Source: Somniosus microcephalus (Eukaryota). Taken from it: a DNA stretch of 64,000 nucleotides. Location: positions 16,678,001 to 16,742,000 of the forward strand of contig CM126212.1 in the NCBI GenBank assembly GCA_052327205.1. The letters are read 5' to 3'. This document shows, in pieces, positions 1 through 62,069 of this stretch (within the stretch, counting starts at the first letter, position 1; every line of letters begins with the position of its first letter). The notes beneath the pieces were generated by a model. That model saw nothing but the letters and a program-made list of their open reading frames with translations. It did not search any database and was not told where the DNA came from. A program made the position numbers and the translations under genes.

Positions 1-634
1 TGTACAGCTAGAGCATCAAGGTGATTGAAACATCAAAACTGGCCCTGTGTAGGTCCTTCCACCATCCTGAAGCCAGATGTTTGCACAGCTGACGAGGAAA
101 CTCTTATGGCTTGGAACAGCTGCTGCTGGAAACCACTGCTAAATGGTTGTCCCCTGCTATAATCAGGAGGGTAGCGGCAATGCCTCACAGATTTTGTGGT
201 AAACTATGTTGCTCAGGAGGAGTTCCTGCTAACTACTTCCCATCTAGCGAGGGCCTAAACTGTCAAGTGAGGTCTTTGCCTCGTGGCCAACGTGTAATTA
301 TCTTCCTTGGGGGAAAAGAGAAGAAAAGCAGGCTCTCTTTTAGATTGCGTTGGCTCCATTACATACACTCCTTTACCATGGCCCAGATTCCTTATATCAT
401 CTAACACTGCTTTCAGAAAAAGTGTAAGGCAAGAAAACCAGAGGGATAACGAGAAGAAAAAAAAGAGGCAACATTTCAATTTTTGTTTTAAGTTTCAAGA
501 AAATGAATTCAAGTCAGTATTTATATGACCAACACAGAATGAGAACAATTAAGTAAAATAAATGGGCAATCTCTCTATCGAAATTAGACAAACAAAATCA
601 AAGCACCAAGTTTTCTCTTCCTTTGACCCTTGAA

Positions 635-1300
635 GCCATGATCAAACTGTACAGTGCTCTGGTCACACCGCACCTTGGGTACTGGGTGCATTTTTGGTCA
701 CCAAGCTACAAGGGAGACTTCAGGTCCTGAAATTCCACTGGGGGAATCTCAGTCTCCTGCTGTAACTCTGGTGGGAGACCGGCAGAACCAGCCCACAAAT
801 GGCAGAAACATGGCATGACCTATTTTTGAGGAGTTCTACCAGTCTCCCACTGGAGTTCAGTGGAAGGCCAGGAAAATCCCTGCGGAATTTGAGGGCCTCA
901 AGCATTGGAAGGCCGCGCAGAGGCTGATCCCCATTATCAGAGTCTGAGTTAGGAGAAAAGATTGAAGACACTTGGGCTGTTCAGCTTTGAAAGGAGACAT
1001 TTAGGATGTGATCTTATATAGGATGGTTAACTGTATGGAAATAGTAAATGTGGAAAATTATCTCAAAGTAAATTGCATGAGTAGGACATGGGGACACAGG
1101 CTCAAACTGACATAAAGCTCATTTAGAACTGATATCAGAAGGTTGTTCTTCACAGAAAGAGTGATTAAAACATGGAATGAACTTCAGGATAGAGTATTAA
1201 AGGCAAAATTCCTGCAATCATTTAAGAACCAATTGGATGCTGCAATGGGGGAATTTTAGGTTATTTTGGAAGGGATGAACTAAGATTGATCTAATGGCCT
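635..1300 (+). mobile_element. Degraded CR1-type LINE 3' fragment, interrupted by a MITE
   Basis: Decayed RT C-terminal motifs (KLYSALVTPHLGYWVHFWSP; later RT(W)GHRLKL and FFTERVIKTWNEL); boundaries approximate. Confidence 0.75.
723..897. mobile_element. Hairpin MITE, PIF/Harbinger-type
   Basis: Imperfect TIR GGTCCTGAAATTCC / GGAATTTGAGGGCC; exact 3-bp TSD TCA (720-722, 898-900); internal inverted arms; sits inside the CR1 fragment. Confidence 0.8.
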
Positions 1301-2217
1301 CCATCACCTGTAATTGAGGGCACTTACAAGAGTGGGGTGGAAAAGCTCATCCTTCAGGTAAGAGAGAAGAGATCTCCTTGGTAACATGTCTGCAATTGGA
1401 AGTGTGAGATAATTAGCTGGTCCAAAGGAGCATCTTGCCAATCTATACCAGTAGTGCACAAACTATCCTCAATTCTTCCCATTGTTTGCAAGTGTTTCCT
1501 CTCCTTTATTAAAATAATAAATGTCCATACTAATGCACTAATCCAAAACCAAGAACATGGACAAATGTTCTACTCACAAAACTCTTGATCTAACCACAGG
1601 GGGAATGGACAAGAGCGCTATGGTTCAATGCACTCTCAAGTTGCCCTTCTTTTCAGGGAAAGGAAGCCTGCTCGGCAGCCTAAGATAATTAAGTCATTCA
1701 CTTGGAGCATCACAAGGGACAAAGGCATGCCCTACAAAGCAACAGTTGCCACTTTTCTCTGGTATCTTTTACAATAAACAAAAAAGAGAAAAACACCTTC
1801 ACTAAAACAACAAACTGATTTGTAGAGCTCGAGTAGTTTCCTCAAAAGGCTCGCTTCCCCTCCCCCAAACCGCCAATGCCCTACCTTCTGTCGCCAAGAG
1901 GAGGGCTGGCAGCCTACCACTGCCAACCACTCTGGTGGCTGACCTGGTGAAGACTCCCCATCAAATCTTTCCTTTGCCCATAATGAGCAAGCGGCCCTCC
2001 ACAACAGCACATCTGAAACTAGAGGCTCGGCGGACTGGGAGGAAAGAGAGTCTCAATGGCTCCGACACACAGCACCACCATGCCACCCACATGACTGTGA
2101 ATCTATCTGATAAAAATACCATGAAATCACGGCCATATTAAAAACAAACAAAAACGCTACCACTACCAATTTATCCCAAAAAATTAAAACCAAAAGAAAA
2201 GCACATCAAAGACACTA

Positions 2218-2461
2218 CCCTGTGTAGCACTAAGTCTTACAGACCAGAAGCCCCCAGCCCAATTCCCAATCTGTGTAGCACTAGCTGACTTCAGTTGAGC
2301 TGCACCAATTAGCTTCAGCATACTTCGGGAGGGGGGGGGGGGGCGGCGGGGGGGGGGGGGGGGGATGAGGCAACAGTAAAGAAAAGCGGTTGTCAGCCAG
2401 TGTTCCAATCCTGGTCACTATCTAGTGACTCCTGCTGGAAGGTGCAAGTGTGTGGCACAGT
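2218..2461 (+). repeat. Ancient SINE-like repeat, 5' part; continues at ~6660-6780 after the Harbinger insertion
   Basis: The two flanks of the Harbinger join into a sequence similar to copies at ~8090-8250, ~14040-14340 and ~46680-46855 (e.g. CTGCCGACA...CACA.ATGAAGAATGG.CAC). Confidence 0.5.
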
Positions 2462-2953
2462 GGGCTGAATTTTGACAGCGGGGCGGTATCCCGCTCGGAA
2501 CCCGCCTCCTTGCGAGTTTCCCTAGTGCCGGCTCTGCCTGCGCTTTGCAGACACGGCACTAAGTGGCGGGTCATTCAATTGTGCTCGTTGAGGGTGTTTA
2601 AACCAATTTACTCACCATTTTAGCAGGCACAAAGTATTTTCCCAAGTTTTCCATGAGGTTCCCATCGCTCAGGGATCATGCCAGGTAAGTATGTTGGGTT
2701 CTGAACAACTCTCCATTTCTTCCAATAGGTGACAGCTGCAAAAGTGGTTTAAAACTTACCATTTTACAGCTGGTCACTTTCCACTCTCAGGAGCATCAGG
2801 CTCGAGTATTTGGAGCAGATTTTTAAGCTTTATGCATTTGGGAAGTGTTTGCAGTAAACTCTCTATTCACGGTCACCTCCTTGCAACATCATATCTAACC
2901 CTCGATAGATTGGTTCTGTCATCTGAACTTCACCTGCCATATGAATCATCAGA

Positions 2954-4219
2954 ATGGGCACGATTTATGCTCTCGTCACCTTGGTCCTCCGAATCTGATG
3001 GACGATCAGCCGCAGCAGAACCAGCCACGCCAGCAGCAACAAGAAGAACGCCAACCTTCTCCTCAGCCTGCTGCATGGTGTTGGGTGATGCAAACCTGCG
3101 TACACGGGTGGCAGCCACATGTATGAACTGCATGAATTTATTGAAATCTGCCATTGATGCTGCACAGGGCATAGGGCATCAGCGCAGGGCTGCACCGCGT
3201 CGGAGGCCATACCCCCAAAACAGGGTACACAGGCAGAGGATGAGCTTCCTCAAACTGACAGAGCAGCAGTGCCAAAGGAGGCTCAGGCTATCGTGCCAGG
3301 TTGTCACCGATATTTGCACTTTACTGGAGCAAGACCTGCAGCCCAGAGGAAGGGGTGGACACTCCTTACCAGTGGCTGTCAAACTCACCCTTGCCCTCAT
3401 CTCCTTCCAGGTATCTGCAGCAGACCTTTGTGGCATCTCAGCTGGCCGCGCACAGCTGCATCACACAGGTCACTGATGCCCTCTTTAACAAGTCCGCAAA
3501 TTATATCCACTTTGCAAGTGATGAAGGCAGCGTCAATGAATGGGTGCTCGGTTTCGCAGCTCTGGCTGGCTTCCCACGGGTGCAGGGAATGATCGACTGC
3601 ACACATGTGGCCATCAGGGCACACCATCACAACACAGTAGCATTTGTTAACCACAAGGACTTCCACTCCCTCAACGTTCAGCTGGTCTGCAACCATAGGA
3701 AGATTATCATCCATGTGTGCGTCAGGTTCTCTGGCAGCTGCCATGACTCGTACATCCTGTGCCAGTCTTGGTGGCTGGCTGCTTGGAGACAAGGGCTATG
3801 CTCTGAAGACGTGGCTCATGACATCTTTGAGGAGGCCAGCAAATAAGCCTGAGGGACATTCTAATCAAAGCCACATCTCCACGAGAAGCGTCATCGAACA
3901 GACAATAGGCTTGCTCAAAATGCGCTTCAGATGCCTCGACAGATCTGGAGGAGCCCTTCAGTACGCCCCAGCTAGGGTCTCGCGAATAGTCATCGTCTGC
4001 TGCGCCCTGCACAACATAGCGCAGCAGCCAGGATTAGTACTGGATGAGGAAGACGGCGCTGAGCGCAGAGCCTCATCGGAGGGCGAGGAGGCTCACCATT
4101 AGTTTGGTTACAAGGAGGAGAAACACCTGGACGAGCCGGCGGTCCCATTGCGACCAGTACGCGAGCAAGTTGCTGCCCATCACACCAGGGATACCTTCAT
4201 CAATGGCAGATTTCAATAA
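2954..4219 (+). pseudogene. Harbinger DDE transposase (HARBI1-like), frameshifted
   Basis: Motifs spread over three frames: [82 protein letters not shown]; ends RDTFINGRFQ*. Confidence 0.92.
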
Positions 4220-4479
4220 CTTCATGGAGTTCATACATGAGGCTGCCACCCGCGTATGCAGGTTTGCATCACCCAACACCATTCAGCAGTCCAACAATGA
4301 TTCGTCCCTTGTTTTGACTCTCACCACCACTGCTGGGTGTAAAATGAGCCCTGACCCTTCACTCTGCTACTTCCATTTCATCACGCAAATTTGCCAACGA
4401 ACTCCAAATGTGACAATTAGATGATTTATTAACAGCACTTTATCAAATACATCGATAAAGAAAGACACACCCGAGTGAC

Positions 4480-6444
4480 TACCCTTGTAACTATTTGTGT
4501 GGGATCTTTCTTTTCCGGGTGCTTCTAATCATGCTAGCCCTGCGGCTTCAGCAGAGGTAGAGGCAGCCTCCTCATCTCCGTGCTGCCCTTGCTTCGACGC
4601 CTTTGGCGGTCGTCCTCTGGGTTTTGGAGCCACTGATGGCTCCGCCAAAGTCTGCTCCTACTGCGACCGTGCATGCGCAGACTCAGCCATCACTGTCCGG
4701 GGAGGCATCTGGGGCTCTGACCGAAGAGTTGGCAAGGGGGTGGAAGTCAGAGCGCTTGGAACGAGCCCCCACTTCCATGCCCCCTCCCACCATCATCCCT
4801 CTCGTGGGTCACCCGCACTTCCCTGCTAGCAAGTAGCTGGAGAGCACCTTGCTGCACTTCAGTGGGGCCATGAGGACCCACCTCTATACTGACATCCCTC
4901 CTACAAAGGACGTCTGAGGCCCTGGTTTCTCTCCTCCATAGATGCCCATCTCTCCTCCATAGAGAGCATCTATTTTGAAGAGAAACCATGTTCTCATGTG
5001 ACTGGCGATGCGTCTCCTCCGTGCAGGTGGCCATCCTATCTATGGAGGAAGCTATAGTTTCCAGTGAGTGCGCCACGGTGTTGCTTATGCTGGAGATGGA
5101 CTCCTCCATTTCCTGCACACTCGCAGTCACTGCCGTCGCAAAACCAGTCAGAGCCACTTGCACTTGTTCCTGCAGCTCCAGGATCGCCCTCTTCCTGGAT
5201 GTCCCCCACGAGGCTCAGCGTCTGCATGCAGCTGAGCCGAGCTAGGAGACTCCTGCGCCCTCCGACGAGGAGTCTCCACTGCTGTCAATGTCTCCACCAT
5301 CTGCTGCTGCTCAGTTGTGATCTGTGAGGCACCAGGTGACAACACTTCTCTATCTCGCGACATACACACCGATGTGTGCAACTCTGCGTTGGTGCTGGGT
5401 TGTGTTGTCTGAGGTGATGCTGCACCCTCAGAGGCAGGAGGTTCATCTGAGGAATCTTCTTGCTGTTGCTCCTGGACATTGGAGGGGGGGGATCTTGATG
5501 GACCCGTGGGAGAGTAAAGACATCAGTTAGATATACAGGATGTCTACTGCAAACACATACCATTATCCACATGATGAGCATTCATCTTGTCTTGACATCA
5601 CACCCCATATGAGGCAATGCTGAAAGGCATGCAATTGTATGGAAATACATTCAGTCACCAGCTTCTTCGACTGAGCCCCTCTCTCCGTCCCCCACTTCCG
5701 GAACGTCCACCACTCCAGCAATCTCCAGTGCTGCCTCCGCTGCACGCGTCAGATATACCATGGTTTGTGGAGGCCCTCCTCCCGTTCTCTCCCTCTCCCT
5801 CTTATTGTGGGCTATCTTTTCCTGCAAGGAGGGAAAGAAGAAGGTTCAGTGAGAGTGATGGTATGAGTGTAAGGAATGGAATGGCATAGAGCTTTACACT
5901 GACAATTTGATGGAGTGGGTTGGCAATTCCAAGTTGCCTCCTTTTGTGTTGTTAGTTGCTGTCATTGCATAACGATGAGGCTCAGTGTGAGGGCTGCATA
6001 GTAAGATGTCGACCTGATAATGTAGATAGAGTTAGAGGGATGGATGAAGGTACAAGGGATGTTGGGCTGTGTAACGCTGTGTAGGAGTAGGGGTGGCAAT
6101 GTAGAGTGGTGTGAATGTGATGAGACTCACAGCAGCATCAAGGAAATTGTGGCTTAATACTCACTTTTCCTGATCTTACTAGATCATTGAATCTCTTGCG
6201 GCACTGCACCCAGATGCGAACCACCACTGACAGCCCTGCTGCCCTTGTCTGCTAGGGAGGCCTCTTCCTGCCATCCGCAGGGAAGAGAACCCGCTCTCAC
6301 TCCCTCCACAAGATGATGGAGGGACTCGTCTGTGAAGCGAGGTGCTGCTCATTGGCGCTGCAAGCTCATAGTCCATAGTCCAGAGACATAAACACGGACA
6401 GCACTGAATGCTATCAATTTGCAACGGACAATAACTGGGGCCAT
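4480..6444 (-). pseudogene. Harbinger Myb/SANT-like (trihelix) DNA-binding protein gene, spliced and decayed
   Basis: Exon ending RIWVQCRKRFNDLVRSGK|gtgagt (6165); next exon after a pyrimidine-rich acceptor starts at 5821 (EKIAHNKRERERTGGGPP); acidic low-complexity middle; C-terminal KPRGRPPK. Start and stop positions approximate. Confidence 0.8.
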
Positions 6445-8616
6445 GGCCCCTTTAAATAAACCAGCAATAATCACGTCATCCAGTGACGTCACCAGACTTG
6501 CACCTTTTAATAGGGCTGGGAAATGCGCATGGCGGGCCTAACGAGGCCCATTAGGACAAGATTCGATTTATCAACGGGATCCATGCAGCAGCGGGGTCGC
6601 CCCCCGCCGCCGATCTCTCCCACCTTGAAGCCGCCCAGGTAGGCGAAGTCGCAGCCAGTATGTGTGAAAATCAGGATCAAATTTGTCTGTGATGCCTTCC
6701 ATTGTGAAATATCCTGCCGACACTCATGGTTCAGGTCACAGATGAAGAATGGTCACCTGGATGAAAGACTGAACCATACCCTCAGTGTCTTCAGGAAGAG
6801 AGAGATGAAGAAAATCAGAGCCCGGGCTCGGGGGGGGGGGGGGGGGGGGGGGGGTGGAGAGATTCCCATCTGATCATAAGGCACTGCTTATAAGTTTCTC
6901 TTTTTAATTTTACACAAGAAATCTACATGCTCTTATGACATCGTTCCATAAAGAGTACATGCTATAGTACAAATTTCACAATACTTGCAGATAATTGCAA
7001 TGAGAGTTACTGTATATAGTTATACAGTTCCATACATCAGGACAAGCTTGGTGACCGGCCCTGGGTCATCCCTAATCAGGGACTGTTGGGGGTTTGCAGG
7101 GAGAGGGGGGCCAATAGTAGATTCAGGGAACAAACCAACCCAATCGTTAAACTTTGAGTCACAAAATACTTTGCAGTTTTCAAAACAATTCTGTCAAATA
7201 ATGGTGAAGCTCATTTTTCATTTACTTGCAATATCTCAGAGCAGAATTTGAGCAATTTGGCACACGTTTGACCATTTCTTCATTCAAAGCATTATGTGAA
7301 TGAAGTATGAAGAAAAAAAACAACCAAGTTATGCTGTTACTTTGCAAGCATGTTCACCACAGTTCTTAAAAGGCTGGCGAGAGTTTCTGGTGACGTTTGA
7401 GAAATGTTTGTGCTACTGAAAGCACAAAAACAGAAAGGCTGACAATGAACGGGGTTTTCTGTTCATTATTGAGAGGAAAAAAAGGTTCTGCTGAGTGAAC
7501 ATTTTCCTTTTGTTATTTTCCTACTTCTTTCGATGCCGACGTACATCTGTGCCATTAATGGCAGAGTTAATTGTTAACATTTTTAAAAGGCTTTGCAAAT
7601 GACTAGACAGACAGGAAGTGACTAGGGTGACCCAAACACCCACACTAATAACCTCGCAGTCAAATTCATCTCCTGCCATGATGCTCGCTGAAAGTCAGTC
7701 TCCATAACAACCAGTGTTCCCACTCACAGATGGCCAGAGTGCCCTGAATCTACACAGGTGGTACTGGACTGGTGTTCCGAAATAACCACAACAATGACCT
7801 CGGTCAATTTTATTGCTGTCAAACAGCCATCTGAGACGTTCTTTCCTTTTGAAGGAAATTAAACCAAGCAACACAGGGCTCTTTAAGGTCAATAGATTCC
7901 GGCGAAGCAACACATTGCTCAAAGGCAATTTAGATGCAGGAGAACTACTCCGTTTTTCAGCTGTTTAAGTTAACCAAGAATTGTCCCTTCCTTCGCCTGC
8001 ACAAGCCGTTTTAGAGAATTGAAATAGTGTCCACACCCACAATTGGAAAGATTTTTTTCACACAGTTAAAACGTTCGAAAATAAACAGTTCCCAATCACC
8101 ATCCGGCAATCCTTGCTAGAAAGTCATGTGGTGATGTTTGCTGGTGTCAATTAAGGACTAGATCAGGTTAGGCTAGAATACCCTACGGCGAACAGGCTGC
8201 CGACAGTCCCAGTCCAGGCTCACACATGAAGAATGGGCACATCGGAAGTATCGGGGAGAACGGTCAGTAGCAGAGTTGGGAAAATTAGTGAAACAGAAAC
8301 ATGTTAGGCTAGAAATTCCTTTCTGTGGAGATGCGGTTGAAGTATGGGCCCGACAGTCAGGGAGGAAATTTAGGCAGTTATTCCTCTGCACCGAACCTCC
8401 ACCCATTTCACGTCCACTGGACATTTGCGATGGGGATGTGCAGACAGGTCCGAGAAGCAGCAGTTTTGCAAAAAGATGTGATTTATATAGTCCAGATCAC
8501 AATGGGATACTACTGTGCCATTCCTTGACTATGCAGTCATGCAAGCAGGTTTAGAGCAGTACAAGGTAACTCCCATAAAAGTAAGGTGCTCAGACTGCTT
8601 CTGGGAGTGACATATT

Positions 8617-9393
8617 GGCCCAGTAATTCCTGTCACAACGTGTGAGTACGGACGGGGTACTCACGCGTGTGACCGGAGGAATTGCCGGTTTTCAGCATGC
8701 ACAGCGCATGCGCTGAAAACCAGCATTTCCTGTCCTCTGACCCAAGGGGTTAAGAGGCAGAACGCATGAGACTGCACAGGCAGCGCGTGCGCAGTGAAAT
8801 TCCTTTTTTCCCCCCGCAGAGTTGCCAGAGTGTAAAGGCCTCCGGTTTTTACGCGTGGAAAAACCAGACGTAAGTACTTAGTTTTACAGGTAAGTGGGCT
8901 TTTAGTACAATTTAGAATTTTTTTATTTTTTTTTCCACAGGTTTATTATTTTTAAAGAATTTACAGTAAGGTAAGTTTAGTTTTAGACCCTATTTATTAA
9001 AAATTTATTTTTTTCAAAAAATTGATTAATTGTTTAAAACATTTAAAAAAACTTATTTATAGTTAATATAATCAGTGGGATTTTTTAACACATTTTATTT
9101 AAAGTTTAAGTAGTGTTTTGGCAGCCCATACTTTTCATGAGTTTGACAGTTCTTACTCTCAAACTCATGAATGAGTTTCCCCTCCCCTGACTGGCTGCAC
9201 AGTGCTCACCTGATCCCAGCCGGCACATCGCACTAACTACGCCGCTGGATCAGGTAAGCACATCGCGCCGACATCGGAACCGGGCCTGTGACAGGAAATG
9301 CAAGCAGGCCCGGGCTTCAGATGTCGGCGCGCAGGGTGAGTGCACATCGGGGGCTTGCACGCACGGCAAGCCCCCGATCCTAATGTCAGGGCC
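8617..9393. mobile_element. Non-autonomous Harbinger-like element (GC-rich ends, very AT-rich core)
   Basis: Ends GGCCCAGTAATT / TAATGTCAGGGCC; flanks ATT/AAT; sharp composition boundaries. Confidence 0.6.
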
Positions 9394-10689
9394 AATACCC
9401 AGAAAGGTATTGAAGCCAGACCCAAATTTATAACCGGTGGGTAACAGAGGTAAAGCTGGGCATCATCAGCACAACATATGGAACCTGACCCTCTCCAGAA
9501 TGAAGTGAGAATGAAATCTGGGATAATTACACCTTATACGGTTTGTTACTTCAGCCGCCACTTGTGCATATACAATCCACTTCTGGTCATTTGAAGAGAT
9601 TTGAATTAATCAATGTGAATTACACAGCTAAGTGTGACTATAATGCAAAAATTTGGAATTATCTGGTATTTTGAATTAAGCAATTCTGAATCGAGTGGAC
9701 TGTTAAGTTTCTTAGAGCTTTCAGTATTATCTCATCGAAAGATTTAACTAGGTGCAGTAGAGTCCATGACGAGATTGTAAATGGAGTACGAGGGCCTGAC
9801 TGACCAAATGGCCTTTCCTCATACCACATGTTGTGTATGAACCCTGGCAGTACAGCAGATGCAATTTGGCATCCACTTCCTCCACATGCACGGGATGAGT
9901 GCATCATAGCAACGGGCTGCTTCAATCTCTCCAAAGGAGGTCAGAGTTCTCATCAGGCAAGGCTAAGCTTGATATAAATACTTACACGCTGCTTTATTCC
10001 ACACTACGGTCAACATACCGAGCAACAATGTTGATCTAGTTCACATTTCAATTTATGCAACTTATCTTCATGTAATGACACAAAATAAAGAACACGCTAA
10101 GCTACCCAACACTAGTGGGTTGCTTTACTTGACTTAAACAAGATGTCTTCTAACAGTATTTCTGACTTTTTAATCTGCCTCAATGAAGGCCCTTGTAGCT
10201 TTTCCTTTTTAAAAAAAAAAAATCTGACCCGTGTGTGTTTTTGTTAACCCTTTTCCTGTCTCCTCAGGAAGTTGGGCTTGGTTCTTGACCCCTGCCTTTG
10301 AAAATAGCTTTATGTAAAGCGCAACAGGAAGGGATATTCTATCCTCCCATGGTGTGAATGCTTGATGGGAGCCTCTGCGATAGGATAACAACTCCCCTAT
10401 TCCTTCCGACTGTCCTGGGTAGCAGTATCAATATCTCGCTTTAATACACGCTCAAAAATACCTAAAGTCTCTAGCCTTTCTTTTTAAACCTGTGCAAATC
10501 CACTTTGTTTTTAAAATCCAACATTAACAAGTTATTTCTTTCCCAAATCCATTCTGTGAAAAAATGGTCATAAAAATCCTGAAACACTACACGGACTGTA
10601 AGGGTCTTGCTATAGTTCCAACTGCATGTCCAACTTCAAAACCTAAATGACGTGAAATCTGCTCCAACTCAACATTGGTAAAAGAAAAT

Positions 10690-11100
10690 AAAGAACTTGA
10701 TTTTGTATAGTACCTTTCACAACCTCAGGATGCCGTAAAGCACTTCACAGCCAATGAATTACTTTTGAAGCGTAGTCATTGTAATATAAGGAAATGAGGC
10801 AGCTAAACTTGCACACAGCAAGATCCCACAAACAGCAGTGAGATAATGAGCAGTTAATCAATTTCAGTGATGCTGATTGGGATTCTGGACAAAATTTCTC
10901 TCAATAAAACTTCCCTGCTCTTCTTCAACTCATGCCATAGGATCTTTTACATACAGATTGTGCCTTGGTTTAACAATTCATCCGAAAGGCGGCACCTCCG
11001 ATAACCCTGTGCTGCCTCAATACTGCAATGAAGTGTCAGTCTACATAATGTGAAGTACCTGGAGTGGAGGCGAGAGTGTTACTGTTGATCCAAGGCTGGC
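10690..11100 (-). mobile_element. SacSINE1-like (Deu-domain) SINE, diverged
   Basis: Similar to the copy at 16262-16678, in the same orientation. Confidence 0.75.
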
Positions 11101-11269
11101 ACCTAAAACCAATGCCATTATCTTCAGCTCCCGCCAGCACCTATGTGCCCCTGGCCTTGCCTGCATCAACCTGCCTGACTGCCACATTAGACTAAATTGA
11201 GCTCGAGGTGGCAGCCACGTTAAGCCCCGAGCAGAGGGGAGGTTTTGTTCCCACATATTATCTGTTGCC

Positions 11270-11600
11270 AAAGAACACTTTCATCCACCTGTGAAACATT
11301 ATCAGTTTGCAACCTCTCTCTCTCTCACTTGACATTGCCTAAAGCCAAATTCCATGCCTTCATCATTTGGAGGCTCAACTTCTCAAATGCTCTCTCTCCT
11401 TGCTAGTCTCCCCCATCCTCTACAAACTACAAATTTTGCACACATCCTGTACTGCACTAAGTCCTGCCCTCCATTCTTGCCACGCCTCACTGCTTCCCTG
11501 TGCCTCAGCAAATTCATTTTAAGATCTTTGTCCATGCTTTTAAGTTCTATCCAAGGCCTTGCTTTACACCGTCAATAATCGTAAACCGATATGCTTGGAT
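11270..11600 (+). mobile_element. Highly degraded L2-type LINE fragment
   Basis: Remnant HAFI..RL.FSNAL and F.FKI..HAFK motifs typical of the L2 ORF2 3' region. Confidence 0.5.
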
Positions 11601-12904
11601 GTTACACCCAAACCGTCAGCCTGTGATGCCCGTCTCCACCAGTTCCAATGAAGGGTTTCACTTACTATTTTGTTTCAGGTGATCAAGCTGCTGTGCATTG
11701 CCAGCATCTTTTTTTTTTTAATTCATGAAATGAAATTTTAGCGGCCCGAGTGTTTGGCCAGATTAGCTGTAAAGCTGTACGCAATGACATCACAAAGTGC
11801 AAAAACTGACATCGGTGTCTAGAAACGGTGTCTAATTAATAAGGACTGAATGAGCACATGTTCTCTCCACAAGTTCACAGTAACATGTTGCATATTCGAG
11901 ACTATTCAAATGTCATATTTTACTAAGATTTTACTATTCAAGGTAACCACTGAAGCAATAACTATGGTTACCATGAATAGTAAAATATGGCATTTGAATA
12001 CCTAATACACAATTTCAGTTTCTTGTAAACGTTTTTGTATTTTCTTTGCAGATACCAGTGCTGAGGAATGGAACACTTTCCGTTTCGGACACTCGGTGTC
12101 ACTATCAAGCACGGCCAGATCAGTTCTATACATTGGAAGGCTCCTTCTACTCTGCTCAATCATGTGTCGCAGCTTCAACCATTCTTCTGCAACACTGTTC
12201 CATTACCCACACCAACCAACCCACGAGCGAAAGTGCTAATGGAGTGCCCTGTGTATTTAGTGAACTATGAATTGGATCGTCTAAAGTAGCACCTTTTAGC
12301 TAGACGGCAGAGGAGACTTTCCTCTCAAGAGTCTGAGTTGCAGCATTTTGCTTGTTTGTAAGATTTGGTCACAAGTACTAAAGAGCCTCCTGGCAGTAAA
12401 GAATGTACCTAATATGCTGTGAATCCATCACTCACCAGAGACGGAGGTATGGTGCAGAGAGTCCGAAAGTACATAAACGAGAGGGGAACTAAATAATAAG
12501 TTCACTTGTACCTGTTATGCTTTTGGGTCCTTTTTAATCGTCCTGTTCTATTATTTCAGCCCTCGTATCTTAGATCACTCTCAGACGAGTCTCGACTCCC
12601 CTGTCCTTCAAGAGGGTATATCCTGGTCTTAAAATTGCTTTTAGTTACTGGACTTATCCTATGCCTTAGTAAGATTTCACTCTAATCTTTGAAAGTGGTA
12701 AAAAATTACATTAAACCAAGTTTAAATGATCAAGTAAATTTATTTTTTTTACAAGAGATGAACAAGTAAATAGGTTACAGTAATCCAACAGTTATATATT
12801 TACAGGAGATAAACTTCCATCTAACCCCTCAAATGGTCCAAATAATAAAAAGATAATAACTGTAGGAACAAAGCTAACTCTTTGCAAATACATTTCAAAA
12901 CACT

Positions 12905-41144: not shown

Positions 41145-42794
41145 AGGCTGCATTTTACGAACCACGGTGGGTCGGTGGCGGGTCCCGACACCACTGCTGG
41201 CTCCATCCTGGCCTCTGAAATGAATTTCCCAAGATTGGGTTGTTAAGCCCGCCCAGTGCGTTTCCGAGGCCAATTAGAGGAAGCAGGTCTGATGATGTCA
41301 TTTGAGGATGCGGCATTAGCCGGTTTCCTTAAAAGGGACCACGGCCAAATTTTTTTTGAGATTTGTGCTGTCCATGTTCTACAGCACTGAGGTGCTGCAA
41401 ACACTAACAAGCACTGCACAGAGGTACAGGGCTGCACCCAGACTCTCCTATGACTCCCTCCATATGCTTATGGAGGGAGTCACAGCACGCAGGGAGGTTC
41501 TCTTCCCTTCCCATGGGCAGAAGAGACCTTCTTAGGAGATCTACGCAGCCTGGCTGCACATTGCAGAGAAGGGCACAAGCAGGGATGTGGTCAGGAGGAC
41601 CTGGGTGCAGTGGCAAAAACGTTTAGATGATCTCAGCAGATCACGAAACATTGGTACAAAGCCACATAACTTCATTCTGCTGTGCCTCTCATCACATCCC
41701 CATCACTCTGCCTTCCCTACCCTACTCCTGCACATCCTTACTCACACCAACTTACCTTGCACCTCCACCCATTCCCCTCTATCTACAGTACCACATCCCC
41801 ATATCTCTAGCCACCCCTCACACTCACCCTATTGCAATCATACCAACTAACAACACACAAGGGTAGGCACTTGGATGTTTTATGCAATGTTCATGTAAAC
41901 TTTGTGTTAATGTGGTGTCAAACATTGAAACCTTTATTTTCAACACTTTGCGTTCTTGGTCAGATTTGAGTGCACCTTTGGAAGTGCCTTAGTGGGTTGC
42001 AGTGAATGGCGAGACTTAACGCTACCTCCACAATGGTGATGAGTGTGAAAGGAAGGAATGGCTTGGACATTGTAGGGGTGCTTTATGGTGTTGGTGTGGG
42101 TTGGTGCCAACCTGGCGCATCATGTGGCAGCCAGGGTGTACAGTGTCAAGTGAAGTAAATCTGGCCATGGTGAGGCCATCCCTGGCTTCCCAGGCAGCAA
42201 TGTGGTTGGGGTGCTGATGCCCTCTGTCCTGTACAGCATCAGTTGATTGCAGAGAAGGTTGGTATTGTTATTGGTGCTGCTGGTGATGCTGGTGTTGGGG
42301 CTGATCATGGTGGGATTCTGAGGACCAAGGTGAGAGAGTTTCTAGGGCACCCATGTTGATGGAAAAGATGGCAGGTGAAGTAGAGATGATCTGTCAATGG
42401 TGGGAGAGATAATGAGGTCAGACTGGATGGAGACTTGTGGAAAGACTTGCAGCATCCTGAATCTGTAGTGGAAATGCAGTTTAGAGAAGCTACTGGTATA
42501 GAGAACATTTCGCAATCAGCTGGGAGCTTTGACTTGACATTTGAAGCTGTCAATTCATCAGCTGATGCAATGATCACTGACCTCCCGCCTCAGCTTCACA
42601 GACGAGGTCCAGGCACAACGGGAAACCGGTGGGCAACCTGTCAAATCCAAAAAGCTCAGCGCCGACAGACCCGACATGTGGTAAAAGCGTGTGGTGGCAG
42701 ATACACAACGGGTTCCCGACCCGCTGAGGGAAAAAAACTTTCCCACCCGACCTACCATCGATTGTGACCGCTGACCCATCGCAAAATCCAGCCC
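41145..42794. mobile_element. Internally deleted Harbinger element related to 2462-6656 (opposite orientation)
   Basis: TIR AGGCTGCATTTTACGA / TCGCAAAATCCAGCCC; flanks TAT/TAA; Myb exon remnant on + (~41421-41648, RAAPR...REVLFP...RRTWVQWQKRLDDL); transposase N- and C-terminal remnants fused on - (~42150-42355). Confidence 0.85.
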
Positions 42795-44403: not shown

Positions 44404-46366
44404 AAATAGGAACATAAGAAAAAGAGGAGTAGGCCATATGGCCCCTCGAGCCTGCTCCGCCATTCAATAAGATCATGGCTGATCATCGACCTCAAATCTA
44501 CTTTCCCGCCCGATCTCCATATCCCTTGATTCCCCATGAGTCCAAAAATCTATCTATCTCAGCCTTGAATATACTCAAAGACTCAGCATTCACAGCCCTC
44601 TGGGGCAGAGAATTCCAAAGATTCACAACCCACTGAGTGAAGAAATTCCTCCGCATCTCAGTCTTGAATGGCCTATCGCTTATCCTGAGACTATGCCCCC
44701 TAGTTCTAGACACTCCAGCCAGGGGGAAACAACTTCTCAGCATCTACCCTGTCAATCCTCCTCGGAATCTTGTATGTTTCAATGAGATCACCTCTCATTC
44801 TTCTAAAATCCAGAGTAGAGGCCCATTCTACACAATCTCTCATCATAGGCCAGCCCTCTCATCCAAGGAATTAATCTAGTGAACCTTCGTTGCACCGCCT
44901 CCAAGACAAGTATATCCTTCCTTAGATAAGGAGACCAAAACTGTGCACAGTACTCCAGGTGTGGTCTCACCAAGGCCCTGTACAATTGTAGCAAGACTTC
45001 CTTACTCTTATACTCCAACACCCTTGCAACAAAGGCCAACATGCCATTTGCCTTCCTTATTGCTTGCTGTACCTGCATGCTAGCTTTCTGTGTTTCTTGC
45101 ACGAGGACACCCAAATCTCTCTGAACACCAACATTTGAAAGTTTCTCACCATTTAAAAAATATTCTGTTTTTCTATTCTTCTTACCAAAGTGAATAACCT
45201 CACATTTCCCGACATTATACTCCATCTGCCACCTTACTGCCCACTCACTCAGTCTATCGATATCCCTTTGCAGACTCTCTGGGGGAGAAATTGGGTGGAG
45301 TCACAAACGGGGCGCCAAGCTCGCCTGGGCGCTGGTTTTTGCACTGCGATCGGAGCAGCAGCGATCGCCGGAAATTCAGCTCGAGCGCCCCAAGAGGGAC
45401 ACGGGGCGAGGCTCGAGGCGCTCTGCGTCCCTCTTAGGGCACTGAAACTGAATATCGCAGCGCAACGTGCTGCAGCGCCACACGCTGCGCTGCGGTACTG
45501 CAGGCCTTCCTCCCATTCTTAAGGGGGAGGGGCCTGCACCAGCGCGATGAACGATCGCGAGTGCTGGCAACAGAGCCCGGCACCGAGGAGAAGTGCCGGG
45601 CTCTCGGAAAACAGCCGGCAATGCCGCGGGGGGAGAACAGGAGGCCGGGGACGGAGGTGCTGGCAGGCGGCCGCCGAAAAAAACAGCCGCCCCGCACCTC
45701 CACCTTAATTTGCGCCACTGCCGCCACAGGTAGACCCCGTGAACCGGGCGCGATTAGCGAGCGGCGCTACAGAGGCGATCGCTGCCAAATATCGCGATCG
45801 GGGCGGTAGCGGGGCGCTGCGCACACCGATGACGTCATCTGTGGCGGCGCAGCGCAACAGGCTAACGCCGCCATTAGCGCCCCAGCTAAATATCGCGGGA
45901 GGCATGGCCAGTGGCACTAAAGCCACTGAGTGGCCTCTTTAGGCGCTAACTGGTGGCGCAGCCCAGCGAATTTCTCCCCCTTTGTGTCCTCCTCACAGCT
46001 TACTGTCCCACCTAGCTTTGTATCATCAGCAAACTTGGATTCATTACACTCGGTCCCTTCATCTAGGTCATTAATATAGATTGTAAATAGCTGAGGCCGC
46101 AACACTGATCCTTGCGGCACCCTACTAGTTACAGCCTGCCAACCTGAAAAAGATCAATTTATCCTTACTCTCTGTTTTCTGTCCATTAACCAATCCTCTA
46201 TAATACCCCCAACCCCATATCTTGTGTAATAACCTTTTATGTGGCACCTTATCGAAAGCCTTTTGGAAATCCAAATATACTATATCCACTGGTTCCCCTT
46301 TATCTCCCCTGCTAATTACATCCTCAGAAAACTCCAATAAAATTGTCAAACACGATTTCCCTTTCC
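44404..46366 (-). mobile_element. CR1 LINE ORF2 3' portion (RT), interrupted by a MITE
   Basis: [52 protein letters not shown] and 3' tail; contains frameshifts. Confidence 0.93.
45281..45980. mobile_element. CpG-rich Harbinger-type MITE
   Basis: Perfect 12-bp TIR GGGGGAGAAATT / AATTTCTCCCCC; flanks TCT/TTT; removing it restores the CR1 sequence. Confidence 0.9.
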
Positions 46367-53123: not shown

Positions 53124-53925
53124 AGTAACATTATTGATGTTACAAGTAATAACGTACCTTCTTTAGCGATGTATTTTTTTGATTCCTTCAATAATATGAA
53201 ATCTGTTCTACTTTCTAGCCAATGCCCAATTTCCCCAGGCCACACAGCAGACGAGAAGGTAACCGCTAACTGGCCAGCCTGCTGTGAGGACTCTGCCAGT
53301 GCTGCTTGGAGCCAGATCAGAGGCGCTATTGTCCTGGCCAATATTCAGACCTCAGTCAACATCACTAAAAAGAACAGATGATCTGGTCATTATCACATTG
53401 CTGTTTGTGGGACCTTGCTGTGCACAAATTGGCTGCTGCATTTCCTACATTACAACAGTGACTACACTTCAAAAGTACTTCATTGGCTGTAAAGCGCATT
53501 GGGACATCCTGAGGTCGTGAAAGGTGCTATAGAAATGCAAGTCTTTCGTTCTTCCTTTATTAATATTTTTACTTTACTCAAACTAGTTCTGAATACTGCA
53601 TAGTGGGCCTGCCACATTAGCGCACTAACATGCTGTAGTGGTGGGATGCCGGCTCAAGCTCACACATAGTTGAGTTGTTAATCTCAAGTCAGCTCCCTGT
53701 CCAAGAGAAAGAAAGGGAGAATGGTTCCTCGTCTGCTCTTGTGCGCCACCTCGGATCTGGCTTTGAGCAGCCCTGGCAGAGTCCTCACAGCAGGCTGGCT
53801 GGTTACCCTCTCGTCTGCTGTGTGGCCTATGGAAATCAGGGCCATTGGCTAGAGAATAGAACAGATTTCATATTATTGAAGGAAACCAAAAAATACATTG
53901 CTAAAGGTGGTCAATAATGTCACTG
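53124..53925. repeat. Long imperfect inverted repeat (arms ~53124-53326 and ~53743-53925)
   Basis: GATTCCTTCAATAATATGAAATCTGTTCTA pairs with TAGAACAGATTTCATATTATTGAAGGAAAC; GCCAGCCTGCTGTGAGGACTCTGCCAG pairs with its reverse complement. Confidence 0.85.
53329..53545 (+). mobile_element. SacSINE1-like SINE 3' half
   Basis: TGTCCTGGCCAATATT...CTGGTCATTATCACATTGCTGTTTGTGGG...GTGAAAGGTGCTATAGAAATGCAAG. Confidence 0.85.
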
Positions 53926-60084: not shown

Positions 60085-61151
60085 CTGTAAAACAAAATAA
60101 AAGACAACAAAATCATTAAAAAGCACAACATTTATATTTTATGCACTGAGAACTGAATTTAAAGGTTATTATTTGACAAAGGGGCTTCACTGTCCTGGTA
60201 AAATGAAAATAAACAGTGACAGTCAATTACATAATCTCATTGCCAATGGTGTCCATGGTTTGAAAAAAAATATTGATTAGTACCATAGATTGACGAGGTG
60301 AAGGTTCACACCCACAACACAATGGGTTCGCAATCTCCAGTCTGGCACTGTAGGGGTAGGCAGTGAGCAAAGAGGCATTTGCCTAGATATTGGGATGGAA
60401 AATTTGAATGCCATTAACCCCTTTACATCCAAGTGGGCAATGGTAATGCAGTACTAGCAGGGGTCAGGGTGCAAAAGTCGAGCCCACCTTCTGAGTTAAG
60501 GATGTTGTGTGACTACAAGAGGAAACATGCACATTAAAAGTTGCAGTGACATCTGGGGTAAAGGAATGCAGGAGCTTGTGTTCAGAACATCTATAATTCT
60601 GCCACTCAATTACTGCCATGAGGTATTTTGTAGACTAGGCATTAAGAGTAAATCCAATAGTGTAAATGTCACCCTGCACATTCTAACAGAAGTTTAAGAG
60701 AGAGTGATGAATTATTACCACTATCAAAATAAAAAACACATCAATTGAGCCAAATGAAATGTTAGGGGGCAAATCCAATTAAATAAATCAGCTTTAAAAG
60801 TTCTTAAGCCATGAGGACTGTTACAATTTGGAAATGCACTAGATACTTTCACTCTCAGTCCATATCCACAGCTAGTCCATGCTTCCTATGAACTAAGAAG
60901 TGACCTTCTGCACAAAGTTATGTGAGATAGCGAGCCACAGAGTGAACAACAAAACGTTTACTGAATGTTAAATACTGGAAATTGAGCGGGTCACGATTTC
61001 ACTACACGCTCTCCATCTCCACCACTGTTCAACAAATAACACTCTGACAGACCGTATGTCTCAGACTACAACTATGAATCAAATGTGTCAAGTAGAATTA
61101 AAACAGTCGCAAGAGAAAACACTAGATTAGAAAGCTTTACTTAAAGTCCCT

Positions 61152-61796
61152 GGCCTAGAAATTCATTTTGGGGCGCCCAGCTCGCCTGGGCGCCGGAATT
61201 ACCGCTGCGCGCAGATCCACTTGCACAAGCGGCCGCTAAACAGGGGTTTCGGCACCCCGCTTGGGCGCTGAAACTGATTATCGGCGCGCTAGTGGCCGCA
61301 GCGCCACCCGCAGCGGAGCGGCAGGCTGCGGTACTGCAGGCCTTCCTCCCTCTCAAGGGGGAGGTGCCTGCAGCAGCCGGAGCCCCGATCGCGAGTGCCG
61401 GCAAAAGAGCCCGGCAGAACGGAGACGTGCCGGGCTCCCGGAAACCAGCCGGCAATGCCGCGGGGGCGGGGGGTGGAGGAGGCCGGGGAAGGAGGTGCGG
61501 GCAGGCGGCCGCCGAAAAAACGGCCGGCCGCACCTCCACTTTAATTACCGCCACAGGTAGGCCCTGTGTACCGGTCGCTGTTTGCGGCCGGCGCTGAAGA
61601 GGCGGGCGCGACTTAATATGGCGTTCTTCGCGGAAACGGGGCGCTGCGCACACCGATGACGTCATTGGTGGCGGCGCAGCGCTACAGCCTAACACCGCCA
61701 TTAGCGCACCGCTGAATTTCGCCTGAAGTTTGCAGACTGGCGCAAAAGCCCTCTTTGGGCGCAAACTGGTGGCGCAGGCCACTGAATTTCTAGGCC
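61152..61796. mobile_element. CpG-rich Harbinger-type MITE
   Basis: Perfect 14-bp TIR GGCCTAGAAATTCA / TGAATTTCTAGGCC; exact TSD CCT (61149-61151, 61797-61799); interior homologous to 45281-45980. Confidence 0.92.
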
Positions 61797-62069
61797 CCTG
61801 TTTCAAAATAGCAAATGTCTCAAAACTCTAGATGATCTTGGAAGTAATGCTCTTCGTTTAGACCAGGTGCCCACGAGGCGAAGTCCACATGAAATCAAAC
61901 TTGTACATAATGTTCCACAAGCCCCAGCTCATTAGCTACCTGGCAAAGCAGATATGGGAAAATAGTTACGCCTCCTTTTTCCTTTTTAAGTCCAGACTGG
62001 GAAGAAAGAAGGTAACGCAAATATAAACTTTCCAATTACAATAACCCTGATAGCCAAAGCAATGTTCAA

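What the first reader, a model, noticed from the sequence alone, without database searches (positions are those of the whole stretch)
3068..4289. Harbinger transposase bracketed by a 92-bp inverted copy of its own 3' end: possible self-silencing ('killer') allele
Seen: 3068-3159 is the reverse complement of 4198-4289, with 6 mismatches in 92 bp by my count. The downstream copy is the natural stop/3' UTR (...INGRFQ*). The related element at 41145-42794 runs straight through the homologous site (CTGATGCTG) without this insert, so the 5' copy is the derived one. Both junctions show microhomology to the donor (CTGCTG and TGATG), as expected for a templated or template-switch insertion. Inference: a transcript from either strand, including the host pre-mRNA, would fold into a ~90-bp duplex looping out the catalytic region. 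That could yield siRNAs or ADAR substrate against the family, analogous to maize Mu killer.
Basis: partly seen in the sequence, partly recalled or inferred. Interest (0 to 1): 0.7.

Follow-up and report, generated by a model that had tools for sequence, protein, structure and literature searches.

The report
Repair scar in dead Harbinger transposon
A broken, old copy of a common jumping gene carries a 92-letter reversed copy of its own far end; this is most likely a one-off DNA-repair scar, and nothing found here shows that it silences the rest of its family.

Summary
The inverted repeat is real: 3068-3159 pairs with 4198-4289, with 6 mismatches in 92 bp. It is single-copy. 0 of 46 paralogs that span the site carry it, and each junction occurs once in the 6.4-Gb genome. 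The 5' arm is the derived one. It shares a 6-bp deletion and a C>T change with this copy's own 3' end, a pair found in none of 48 other loci, so it was most likely copied in cis after the element landed. Microhomology is 5 bp on the right but only 1-3 bp on the left, not 6. The host is a 4.2-kb Harbinger, 5.8% diverged from the family majority, with four other frame-breaking indels and a nonsense codon, in an old star-shaped burst. The silencing ('killer') reading found no support. The arms have decayed without compensation. No RNA read of 42 laid crosses the left junction, single-copy flanks are near zero in two RNA runs, and no host exon was found. Twelve other inverted pairs lie within 164 kb, 9 of them with stronger predicted duplexes. 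Small RNA and raw DNA reads were not testable. Best reading: a microhomology-primed fold-back templated insertion, that is, a neutral repair scar.

The parts
2462..6656 (+). Decayed two-gene PIF/Harbinger DNA transposon copy, about 4.2 kb, with imperfect ~15-bp terminal inverted repeats (GGGCTGAATTTTG... / ...GCGAAGTCGCAGCC); about 58 bp just inside the left end is deleted relative to paralogs
   Evidence: Collinear hits to 20 paralogs run from 2472 to 6656; ends compared across copies; the transposase half is 5.8% from the majority of 19 copies
2459..2461 (.). 3-bp direct repeat AGT at the left end, likely target-site duplication
   Evidence: The same AGT lies at 6657-6659; paralogs L036 and L048 show ATG/ATG and TAA/TAA by the same rule, while L034, L037 and L046 do not match cleanly
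6657..6659 (.). 3-bp direct repeat AGT at the right end, likely target-site duplication
2954..4219 (+). Transposase pseudogene (family majority ORF 418 aa; motifs DCTH at 3595, GDKG at 3785, IEQ at 3893). Broken by +1 at 2974, +1 at 3000, the insert (net +83), -2 at 3438, -35 at 3762 and a TAG at 4100
   Evidence: Pfam PF13359 DDE_Tnp_4 in two frames, E 7.6e-12 and 3.6e-17; indels; nonsense codon and motif positions
3068..3159 (-). Derived arm: inverted templated insertion of 86 new nt (3069-3154), flanked by microhomology C or CTG on the left and TGATG (3155-3159) on the right; 2 changes since copying (3104, 3137)
   Evidence: each junction is found once genome-wide at up to 2 mismatches
4198..4289 (+). 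Donor arm: last 22 nt of the transposase ORF plus 70 nt of 3' UTR. It shares a 6-bp deletion (near 4272) and a C>T with the insert, and has 4 changes of its own since copying
3160..4197 (+). 1038-nt spacer holding the DDE catalytic region, in normal family orientation (not inverted)
   Evidence: Collinear with paralogs from query position 226 to 1521; forms the loop in the fold
4425..6330 (-). Convergent second gene of the element, a likely Myb/SANT-like pseudogene; boundaries approximate; AATAAA on the minus strand at 4425-4430
   Evidence: The homologous frame in paralog L036 gives Myb_DNA-bind_5 at E 0.0018, below Pfam's cut-off; the window's own frame 6182-6451 gives no hit; polyA-like signal
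41145..42794 (-). Internally deleted Harbinger relative, 71-73% identical in the matching stretches, opposite orientation; lacks the insert

Best explanation
The 92-bp inverted repeat is a single-copy insertion in a broken Harbinger transposon, most likely copied from that copy's own 3' end during one microhomology-primed DNA repair or template-switch event, and likely without any function since. SHOWN: the insertion is unique, derived and inverted; it shares derived states with the local donor 1.04 kb away; microhomology is 5 bp on the right and 1-3 bp on the left; the host ORF is broken in five other places; the arms are decaying without compensation. INFERRED: a break near 3068 was resected on its right side past 4289. 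The 3' end ...CATCA of the bottom strand folded back onto TGATG at 4198-4202 of the same strand (loop about 1.04 kb). A polymerase then copied about 87 nt (4203-4289). The new end was released and joined to the left end through 1-3 bp, losing ACC if the two changes were one event. A replication-fork template switch out and back (MMBIR/FoSTeS type) would give the same sequence and cannot be told apart here. The event happened in the germ line after this copy had begun to decay and has drifted since.
For: UNIQUENESS: 0 of 46 site-spanning paralogs carry it; one genome-wide hit per junction. CIS DONOR: the insert and the own 3' arm share a 6-bp deletion and a C>T. Among 48 other loci the deletion is in 9 and the C>T in 3, never both. 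Four deletion carriers (this copy, L003, L010, L061) fall apart in the tree, so the deletion is recurrent and not a subfamily mark. The C that lengthens the right microhomology from 4 to 5 bp is in this copy and in 1 of 48 others. NEUTRAL DECAY: 6 changes in 184 arm bases (3.3%, 95% CI 1.2-7.1%) against 5.8% for the copy overall; 5 of 6 break pairing on either strand and none is compensatory. DEAD HOST AND OLD FAMILY: 19 paralogs are 4.4-7.7% from the majority; terminal branches sum to 1.30 against 0.06 for internal ones; no paralog among 117 protein hits exceeds 84% identity to the query copy. SAME PROCESS ELSEWHERE: paralog L063 has a 32-bp in-place inversion. KNOWN CLASS: germline MMB-TIs in humans, an insertion inverted to a nearby template and flanked by microhomology (PMC8421209, passages and part 1 of section 10); yeast fold-back insertions with 0-5 bp at the captured end (PMC11724301, passages).
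Against: That paper also reports that extensive resection suppresses local fold-backs in yeast, which argues against the resection route specifically. DATING: it rests on 1-3 shared against 6 later changes. The fraction of the copy's life before the event is 0.25-0.5, with 95% limits from 0.007 to 0.82, and an event as old as the copy is not rejected (P = 0.10). RNA: the evidence is two partly read runs (24% and 31%) of unknown tissue from individuals not shown to carry the insert. It cannot see small RNAs or low-level nascent RNA; run X22 had a few flank reads at 1601-2400 and 6801-7600. The longest perfect duplex is still 25 bp, and the predicted duplex is -160 kcal/mol. Independent raw DNA reads across the junctions were not obtained.
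Confidence: 0.85

Rival explanations
1. Mu-killer-like allele: the insertion arose while the family was still active, the locus was transcribed, and the ~90-bp stem fed siRNA, piRNA or ADAR pathways that dampened the family in trans.
For: The arms pair in the MFE and centroid folds, with a duplex of -160 kcal/mol and a 25-bp perfect run. The insert is 96% identical to the family majority over 83 bp, so small RNAs would match. Family RNA with the empty site exists (6 reads in X22). The dating interval reaches back to the time of insertion. Precedent: Mu killer (PMC3440606, passages) and Ac/Ds composite insertions (bioRxiv 10.1101/2020.01.07.897926, abstract and outline only).
Against: No RNA read crosses the left junction: depth 0 at 3072-3083 among 42 laid. 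Single-copy flanks are near 0 in two runs. No host exon was found among the window ORFs scanned. There are no compensatory changes. The stem is about 14 times shorter than Mu killer's ~1300-bp duplication and lies at the 3' end, not over the TIR and 5' region. 12 other inverted pairs (>=60 bp, >=70%, gap <=5 kb) lie in 164 kb, 9 with stronger predicted duplexes; these are mostly other repeats, so they show that duplexes are common, not that this family is targeted. Shared derived changes place the event after the copy began to decay.
Confidence: 0.04
2. Transposition-linked by-product: the same templated insertion, but made during abortive gap repair or aberrant transposition while the family was active, for example after a transposase-made break.
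For: The timing interval includes the start of the copy's life. The copy also has a ~58-bp deletion just inside its left end with TTG at both breakpoints. Abortive gap repair as a source of rearranged Ds and Mu derivatives is recalled; my one search for it gave four listings, none read.
Against: The break is internal, 600 bp from the nearest end, and no element terminus is involved. Both ends and the AGT repeat are in place. The insert was never amplified. A recurrent deletion and a substitution private to this copy predate it.
Confidence: 0.06
3. Trans donor: the patch came from another family copy or its RNA/cDNA (class 2 TSIP type), and the match to the local 3' end reflects family similarity.
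For: The family has very many copies (9991 first-look candidates, 40 scored). Some paralogs differ from the insert by as few or fewer substitutions than the own arm: 4-5 mismatches plus the 6-bp gap, or 6 with no gap. Class 2 TSIPs show microdeletion and microhomology (PMC5110952, passages).
Against: None of 48 other loci carries both derived states shared by the insert and the own arm. In the 27 distinct copies picked without regard to this stretch, each state occurs in 2, so both would be expected together in about 0.5% of random donors. Only a small part of the family was sampled.
Confidence: 0.03
4. Assembly artefact.
For: None of the 24 contig pieces displayed for runs X1, X4 and X9 (of 413 laid) crosses a junction.
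Against: The insert differs from the own arm at 6 sites, keeps the ancestral base at 4 of them and has 2 changes of its own, which a mis-join of local reads would not produce. Logan contigs drop single-copy paths in repeats: X1 holds the element's right flank junction yet shows none of this copy's alleles at 2722, 2871 or 5928.
Confidence: 0.02

Closest known systems
Microhomology-mediated templated insertions (MMB-TI, 'classical' class) as germline variants in humans, PMC8421209 (passages and part 1 of section 10 read)
   Same: The insertion is an inverted copy of a nearby template, flanked by short microhomology, with a return to the original position; it is germline and of no claimed function
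   Different: That search was limited to templates within 100 bp; here the template is 1.04 kb away, and the event is old (6 differences between arms)
Local fold-back inverted insertions at double-strand breaks in yeast, PMC11724301 (passages read)
   Same: One end folds back on its own strand through microhomology and is extended; the copy is captured by the other end with 0-5 bp of microhomology. The asymmetry matches the 5 bp and 1-3 bp seen here
   Different: Those inserts are mostly 5-34 bp with a 41-nt loop and are suppressed by extensive resection; here the insert is 86 nt and the loop 1.04 kb. The enzymes cannot be inferred
Maize Mu killer, PMC3440606 (passages read)
   Same: A rearranged DNA-transposon copy holding an inverted duplication of transposase sequence
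   Different: Mu killer has a ~1300-bp inverted duplication with two copies of TIR-A, is transcribed, and dominantly silences an active family. Here the stem is 92 bp at the 3' end, the transposase is collinear between the arms, no transcript was seen and the family is old. The paper also questions the read-through hairpin model itself
Ac/Ds composite insertions from alternative transposition, bioRxiv 10.1101/2020.01.07.897926 (abstract and outline only)
   Same: An inverted duplication of transposon sequence able in principle to form dsRNA
   Different: Those are made by transposase acting on element termini, with dsRNA, siRNAs and heritable repression shown. No terminus is involved here and nothing functional is shown
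PIF/Harbinger superfamily, PMC9179366 (passages read); Harbinger3_DR named in earlier scan notes and from recall
   Same: DDE_Tnp_4 transposase, a second Myb-like gene, terminal inverted repeats and a 3-bp target duplication
   Different: This copy is a pseudogene; its TIRs are short and imperfect (about 15 bp, against the 25-50 bp the paper gives as usual)

Membership tests
PIF/Harbinger transposon | DDE transposase of the DDE_Tnp_4 (PF13359) type | tested here: met
   Window frames E 7.6e-12 and 3.6e-17; paralog L038 E 9.9e-32
PIF/Harbinger transposon | Second ORF encoding a Myb/SANT-like protein | tested here: inconclusive
   Paralog L036 frame gives PF13873 at E 0.0018, 18.6 bits, under the 21.7 cut-off; the window's own frame gives no hit
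PIF/Harbinger transposon | Terminal inverted repeats | tested here: met
   Imperfect ~15-bp ends shared across copies, GGGCTGAATTTTG... and ...GCGAAATCGCGGCC
PIF/Harbinger transposon | 3-bp target-site duplication | tested here: met
   AGT/AGT here; ATG/ATG in L036 and TAA/TAA in L048; three other copies with both ends in view are not clean
Microhomology-mediated templated inverted insertion (MMB-TI / fold-back) | The insert is an inverted copy of a template on the same molecule | tested here: met
   Two derived states shared only with the local arm among 48 other loci
Microhomology-mediated templated inverted insertion (MMB-TI / fold-back) | Microhomology at the junctions; no target-site duplication of 5 bp or more and no poly(A) | tested here: met
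   5 bp on the right and 1-3 bp on the left against the family's empty site
Microhomology-mediated templated inverted insertion (MMB-TI / fold-back) | Template close to the insertion (within about 100 bp in the published searches) | tested here: not met
   The template is 1038 bp away. The published limit in PMC8421209 is a search setting, so this lowers strict membership of the short-range class, not the mechanistic likeness
Microhomology-mediated templated inverted insertion (MMB-TI / fold-back) | Dependence on a specific polymerase or pathway (Pol theta, Pol delta, NHEJ) | not testable with these tools
   Ancient germline event
Killer alleles (Mu killer, Ac killer type) | Long inverted duplication (about 1 kb) including the terminal or 5' region | tested here: not met
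   92 bp, at the 3' end of the ORF and the UTR; Mu killer is about 1300 bp with two TIR-A copies
Killer alleles (Mu killer, Ac killer type) | Transcription through the inverted repeat | tested here: inconclusive
   No read across the left junction among 42 laid in X22; flanks near 0 in X21 and X22. Tissue unknown, runs read to 24% and 31%, and carriers not verified
Killer alleles (Mu killer, Ac killer type) | Small RNAs from the arms | not testable with these tools
   No small-RNA run was listed
Killer alleles (Mu killer, Ac killer type) | An active target family that is silenced in trans | tested here: inconclusive
   No young cluster was seen among sampled copies apart from three identical twin pairs that include their flanks; only the best-scoring candidates were examined; silencing itself was not testable

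The most novel reading that the evidence does not exclude
A vertebrate counterpart of Mu killer: one Harbinger copy acquired, by fold-back repair near the end of the family's burst, an inverted copy of the transposase 3' end and UTR, and a germline transcript of it supplied the dsRNA that helped shut the family down.
Probability: 0.03. Interest if true: 0.65.

Novelty: new member of a known kind. Interest (0 to 1): 0.12.

Why it matters
As read here it matters little. It is a clean fossil example of a germline templated inverted insertion. Dozens of paralogs give the pre-event state, so the junctions and donor can be read base by base. Its one mildly unusual trait is the 1-kb reach between break and template. 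If small RNAs from this locus were found, it would be a natural hairpin 'killer' allele for an animal DNA transposon, showing how a vertebrate germ line could first recognise a cut-and-paste family. My one search joining Harbinger, inverted duplication, siRNA, silencing and transposase listed a single plant MITE review (listing only), which is too narrow to say that no such case is in print.

Tried and rejected
(1) Family-wide built-in hairpin, with the 5' arm part of the normal element: rejected, 0 of 46 paralogs. (2) Amplified sub-lineage carrying the insert: rejected, one hit per junction. (3) Inversion with duplicated breakpoints: rejected, the spacer is collinear with the family. (4) In-frame N-terminal extension: a 247-aa stop-free frame runs through the insert, but the net change is +83 nt and the frame is broken on both sides. 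(5) The 6-bp deletion as a subfamily marker: rejected, the four carriers in the tree are scattered. (6) L044's 375-bp inverted pair as an analogue: rejected, both arms lie in DNA that does not align to the family. The pairs in L086 and L097 lie outside the matched element. (7) Host gene search: Pfam on 373 window frames, nearly all from the 422 of at least 55 aa (most of those left out lie inside the two Harbingers or GC-rich repeats), gave only the transposase and one reverse-transcriptase fragment above cut-off. This misses short or non-Pfam exons, and the 100 kb of flanks were not scanned, so intronic versus intergenic stays open. Rfam: 0 hits in the window. (8) Sequencing runs: no RNA holder was listed among indexed runs, which is no evidence either way; two raw RNA runs were added by species label and laid. 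(9) Dating by other organisms: contigs of X4 and X9 show the family and its empty site but no displayed piece across a junction. Contigs drop such paths, so this is uninformative. (10) A-to-I editing: the A>G at 3127 in RNA (2 reads, 1 start) is the family allele and is also in DNA contigs, so it is not editing. (11) Earlier findings near this place, and by words: none. (12) timed out and was redone.

Full report
OBSERVATION. The repeat finder gives arms at 3068-3159 and 4198-4289: 92 nt, 93% complementary, 1038 nt apart. Direct comparison shows 6 mismatches, and similarity ends sharply on both sides. The downstream arm holds the transposase stop (ends 4219) and 70 nt of 3' UTR. Folded as RNA, 3060-4300 pairs the arms in both the MFE and the centroid structure (no shuffles are given at this length).

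THE HOST ELEMENT. The window is G000:C11:16678001-16742000 in a 6.4-Gb genome. That it is a shark or ray is taken from earlier scan notes and from my recall of the repeats; I did not test it. The element spans 2462-6656, with imperfect terminal repeats and AGT on both sides. Its transposase matches PF13359. The convergent second gene gives only a sub-threshold Myb/SANT hit, in one paralog. The majority of 19 paralogs reads as an open 418-aa ORF. This copy carries +1 at 2974, +1 at 3000, the insert, -2 at 3438, -35 at 3762 and a TAG at 4100. The copy is 5.8% from the majority and the paralogs are 4.4-7.7% from it. The tree of copies with more than 1500 aligned bases is star-like, with terminal branches of 1.30 against 0.06 internal. 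Among 117 scored protein hits none but the query exceeds 84% identity; some have no stop in the matched part. The only near-identical pairs among fetched loci, other than re-fetches, are three twins that include their flanks. This is an old burst. Only the best-scoring candidates were examined, so young relatives elsewhere are not excluded, and earlier notes report intact-looking Harbingers in this genome (unchecked).

UNIQUE AND DERIVED. In the genome search the paralogs match 1-139 and 226-1521 of the query and skip the insert. Of 59 distinct paralog loci, 46 span the site and none carries the insert (three twins and seven re-fetches were dropped first). Each 26-nt junction is found once in the genome at up to 2 mismatches, with 0 control hits. 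The relative at 41145-42794 also lacks the insert but is only 71-73% identical.

DONOR AND JUNCTIONS. Against the family majority, the insert and this copy's 3' arm share a 6-bp deletion and a C>T. Of 48 other loci, 9 have the deletion and 3 the C>T, and none has both (20 of the 48 were picked for similarity to the insert). The four deletion carriers in the tree do not group, so the deletion recurs by slippage and most likely arose in this copy after it landed. Of the 6 differences, 4 are new in the donor arm and 2 in the insert. The empty site is CCACC-TGATGCTG. The right junction therefore has 5 bp of microhomology (TGATG), whose fifth base depends on a change found in this copy and 1 of 48 others.

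MECHANISM (inferred). The geometry fits a fold-back. The bottom-strand 3' end at the break (...CATCA) anneals to TGATG 1.04 kb along the same strand, about 87 nt are copied, and the extended end is joined to the left end through 1-3 bp. The same asymmetry is described for yeast fold-back insertions, where the captured end shares 0-5 bp (PMC11724301, passages). Those inserts are shorter and nearer, and are suppressed by extensive resection. Human germline MMB-TIs have the same signature (PMC8421209, passages and part 1 of section 10). A replication template switch out and back gives the same product. A second scar of this general type, a 32-bp in-place inversion, lies in paralog L063. It and the window insert are the only opposite-orientation family segments of 25 bp or more in about 174 kb of family DNA from the window and 60 loci, two copies counted twice. 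On timing, 1-3 shared against 6 later changes puts the event 25-50% of the way through the copy's life, with 95% limits of 0.7-82%. An event as old as the copy is not rejected by arm divergence alone (P = 0.10).

TESTING THE KILLER IDEA. (a) Selection: arm divergence is 3.3% per arm (CI 1.2-7.1%). Five of six changes break pairing on either strand, one gives G-U, and none is compensatory. The longest perfect run is 25 bp and the duplex is -160 kcal/mol. There is no sign of constraint, but the power is low. (b) Transcription: in RNA runs X21 and X22 (24% and 31% read) depth is 0 in both at 1-1200, 7601-8400 and 9601-10400. X22 has about 1x at 1601-2400 and 6801-7600, the latter including 5 reads with one start and one end. 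No spliced joint appears in RNA in 1-12000. Reads inside the element carry family alleles, for example G at 3659 in 4 of 4 and 10 of 10 reads. On 3030-3195, X22 laid 42 reads: depth is 0 at 3072-3083, 6 reads show the empty-site joint, and 24 are clipped at 3155 with family sequence upstream. Tissue is unknown, small RNAs are not covered, and these individuals are not shown to carry the insert. (c) Host gene: none was found by Pfam among 373 window frames, nor any Rfam family; short exons would be missed. (d) Background: in 164 kb around the locus there are 13 inverted pairs of at least 60 bp and 70% identity within 5 kb. Nine have stronger predicted duplexes than this one, and at 85% or more there are 4 pairs including this one. 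These are mostly other repeats, so any long transcript here would form duplexes regardless. (e) Comparison: Mu killer has a ~1300-bp inverted duplication with two TIR-A copies and silences an active family (PMC3440606, passages). Ac killers come from alternative transposition, with dsRNA and siRNAs shown (bioRxiv 10.1101/2020.01.07.897926, abstract and outline). Here the stem is 92 bp at the 3' end, and the catalytic region is in the loop.

ARTEFACT CHECK. None of the 24 contig pieces displayed for X1, X4 and X9 (413 laid) crosses a junction. That is uninformative: X1 holds the element's right flank junction yet lacks this copy's alleles at 2722, 2871 and 5928, so single-copy paths are being dropped. 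The ancestral bases kept in the insert at 4 sites, and its 2 private changes, argue for a real and old event.

VERDICT. The feature is real and correctly located. It is a locally templated inverted insertion in a dead Harbinger copy, most likely a neutral repair scar (0.85). The killer reading is unsupported (0.04) but was not tested with small RNA. It is a new member of a known kind; interest 0.12. Other papers seen: PMC9179366 (passages) and PMC5110952 (passages). All other papers were seen as search listings only. No supplements were read.

Noticed in passing
L063:1326-1357 (G000:C9:216285800-216288900): A 32-bp in-place inversion (31 of 32 identical to the family in reverse) next to a 14-bp deletion in another copy of the same family: a short-range template-switch scar
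   Followed up: yes
window 2462-2480: This copy lacks about 58 bp just inside the left end, with TTG at both breakpoints. The deletion removes one arm of a small subterminal hairpin present in most paralogs
   Followed up: partly
L044:1260-1634 and 1800-2174 (G000:C9:94001900-94008100): A 375-bp inverted pair, 96% identical and 165 bp apart, of non-family DNA inserted into a Harbinger copy's second gene; a far longer potential hairpin than the one reported
   Followed up: partly
L010/L011 (C2), L019/L020 (C14), L098/L099 (C1): Pairs 99.9-100% identical over more than 4 kb including flanks, 0.1-1.2 Mb apart on the same contig: recent segmental duplications or assembly duplicates
   Followed up: no
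window 53161-53323 / 53749-53906; L056:1868-2201 / 6109-6437: Inverted repeat pairs with stronger predicted duplexes (-257 and -602 kcal/mol) than the reported one
   Followed up: no
L038:296-730: A fragment of a different, more diverged Harbinger transposase directly upstream of this family's copy; seen in translation only
   Followed up: no
window 45157-45809 and 61141-61827: Two related GC-rich stretches with long overlapping open frames; the frames scanned gave no Pfam hit. Probably a repeat family, not identified
   Followed up: no
PMC9179366 versus this genome: That paper found no Harbinger in elephant shark and asked for other cartilaginous fish to be tested. This genome, if elasmobranch as earlier notes suggest, has very many
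   Followed up: no
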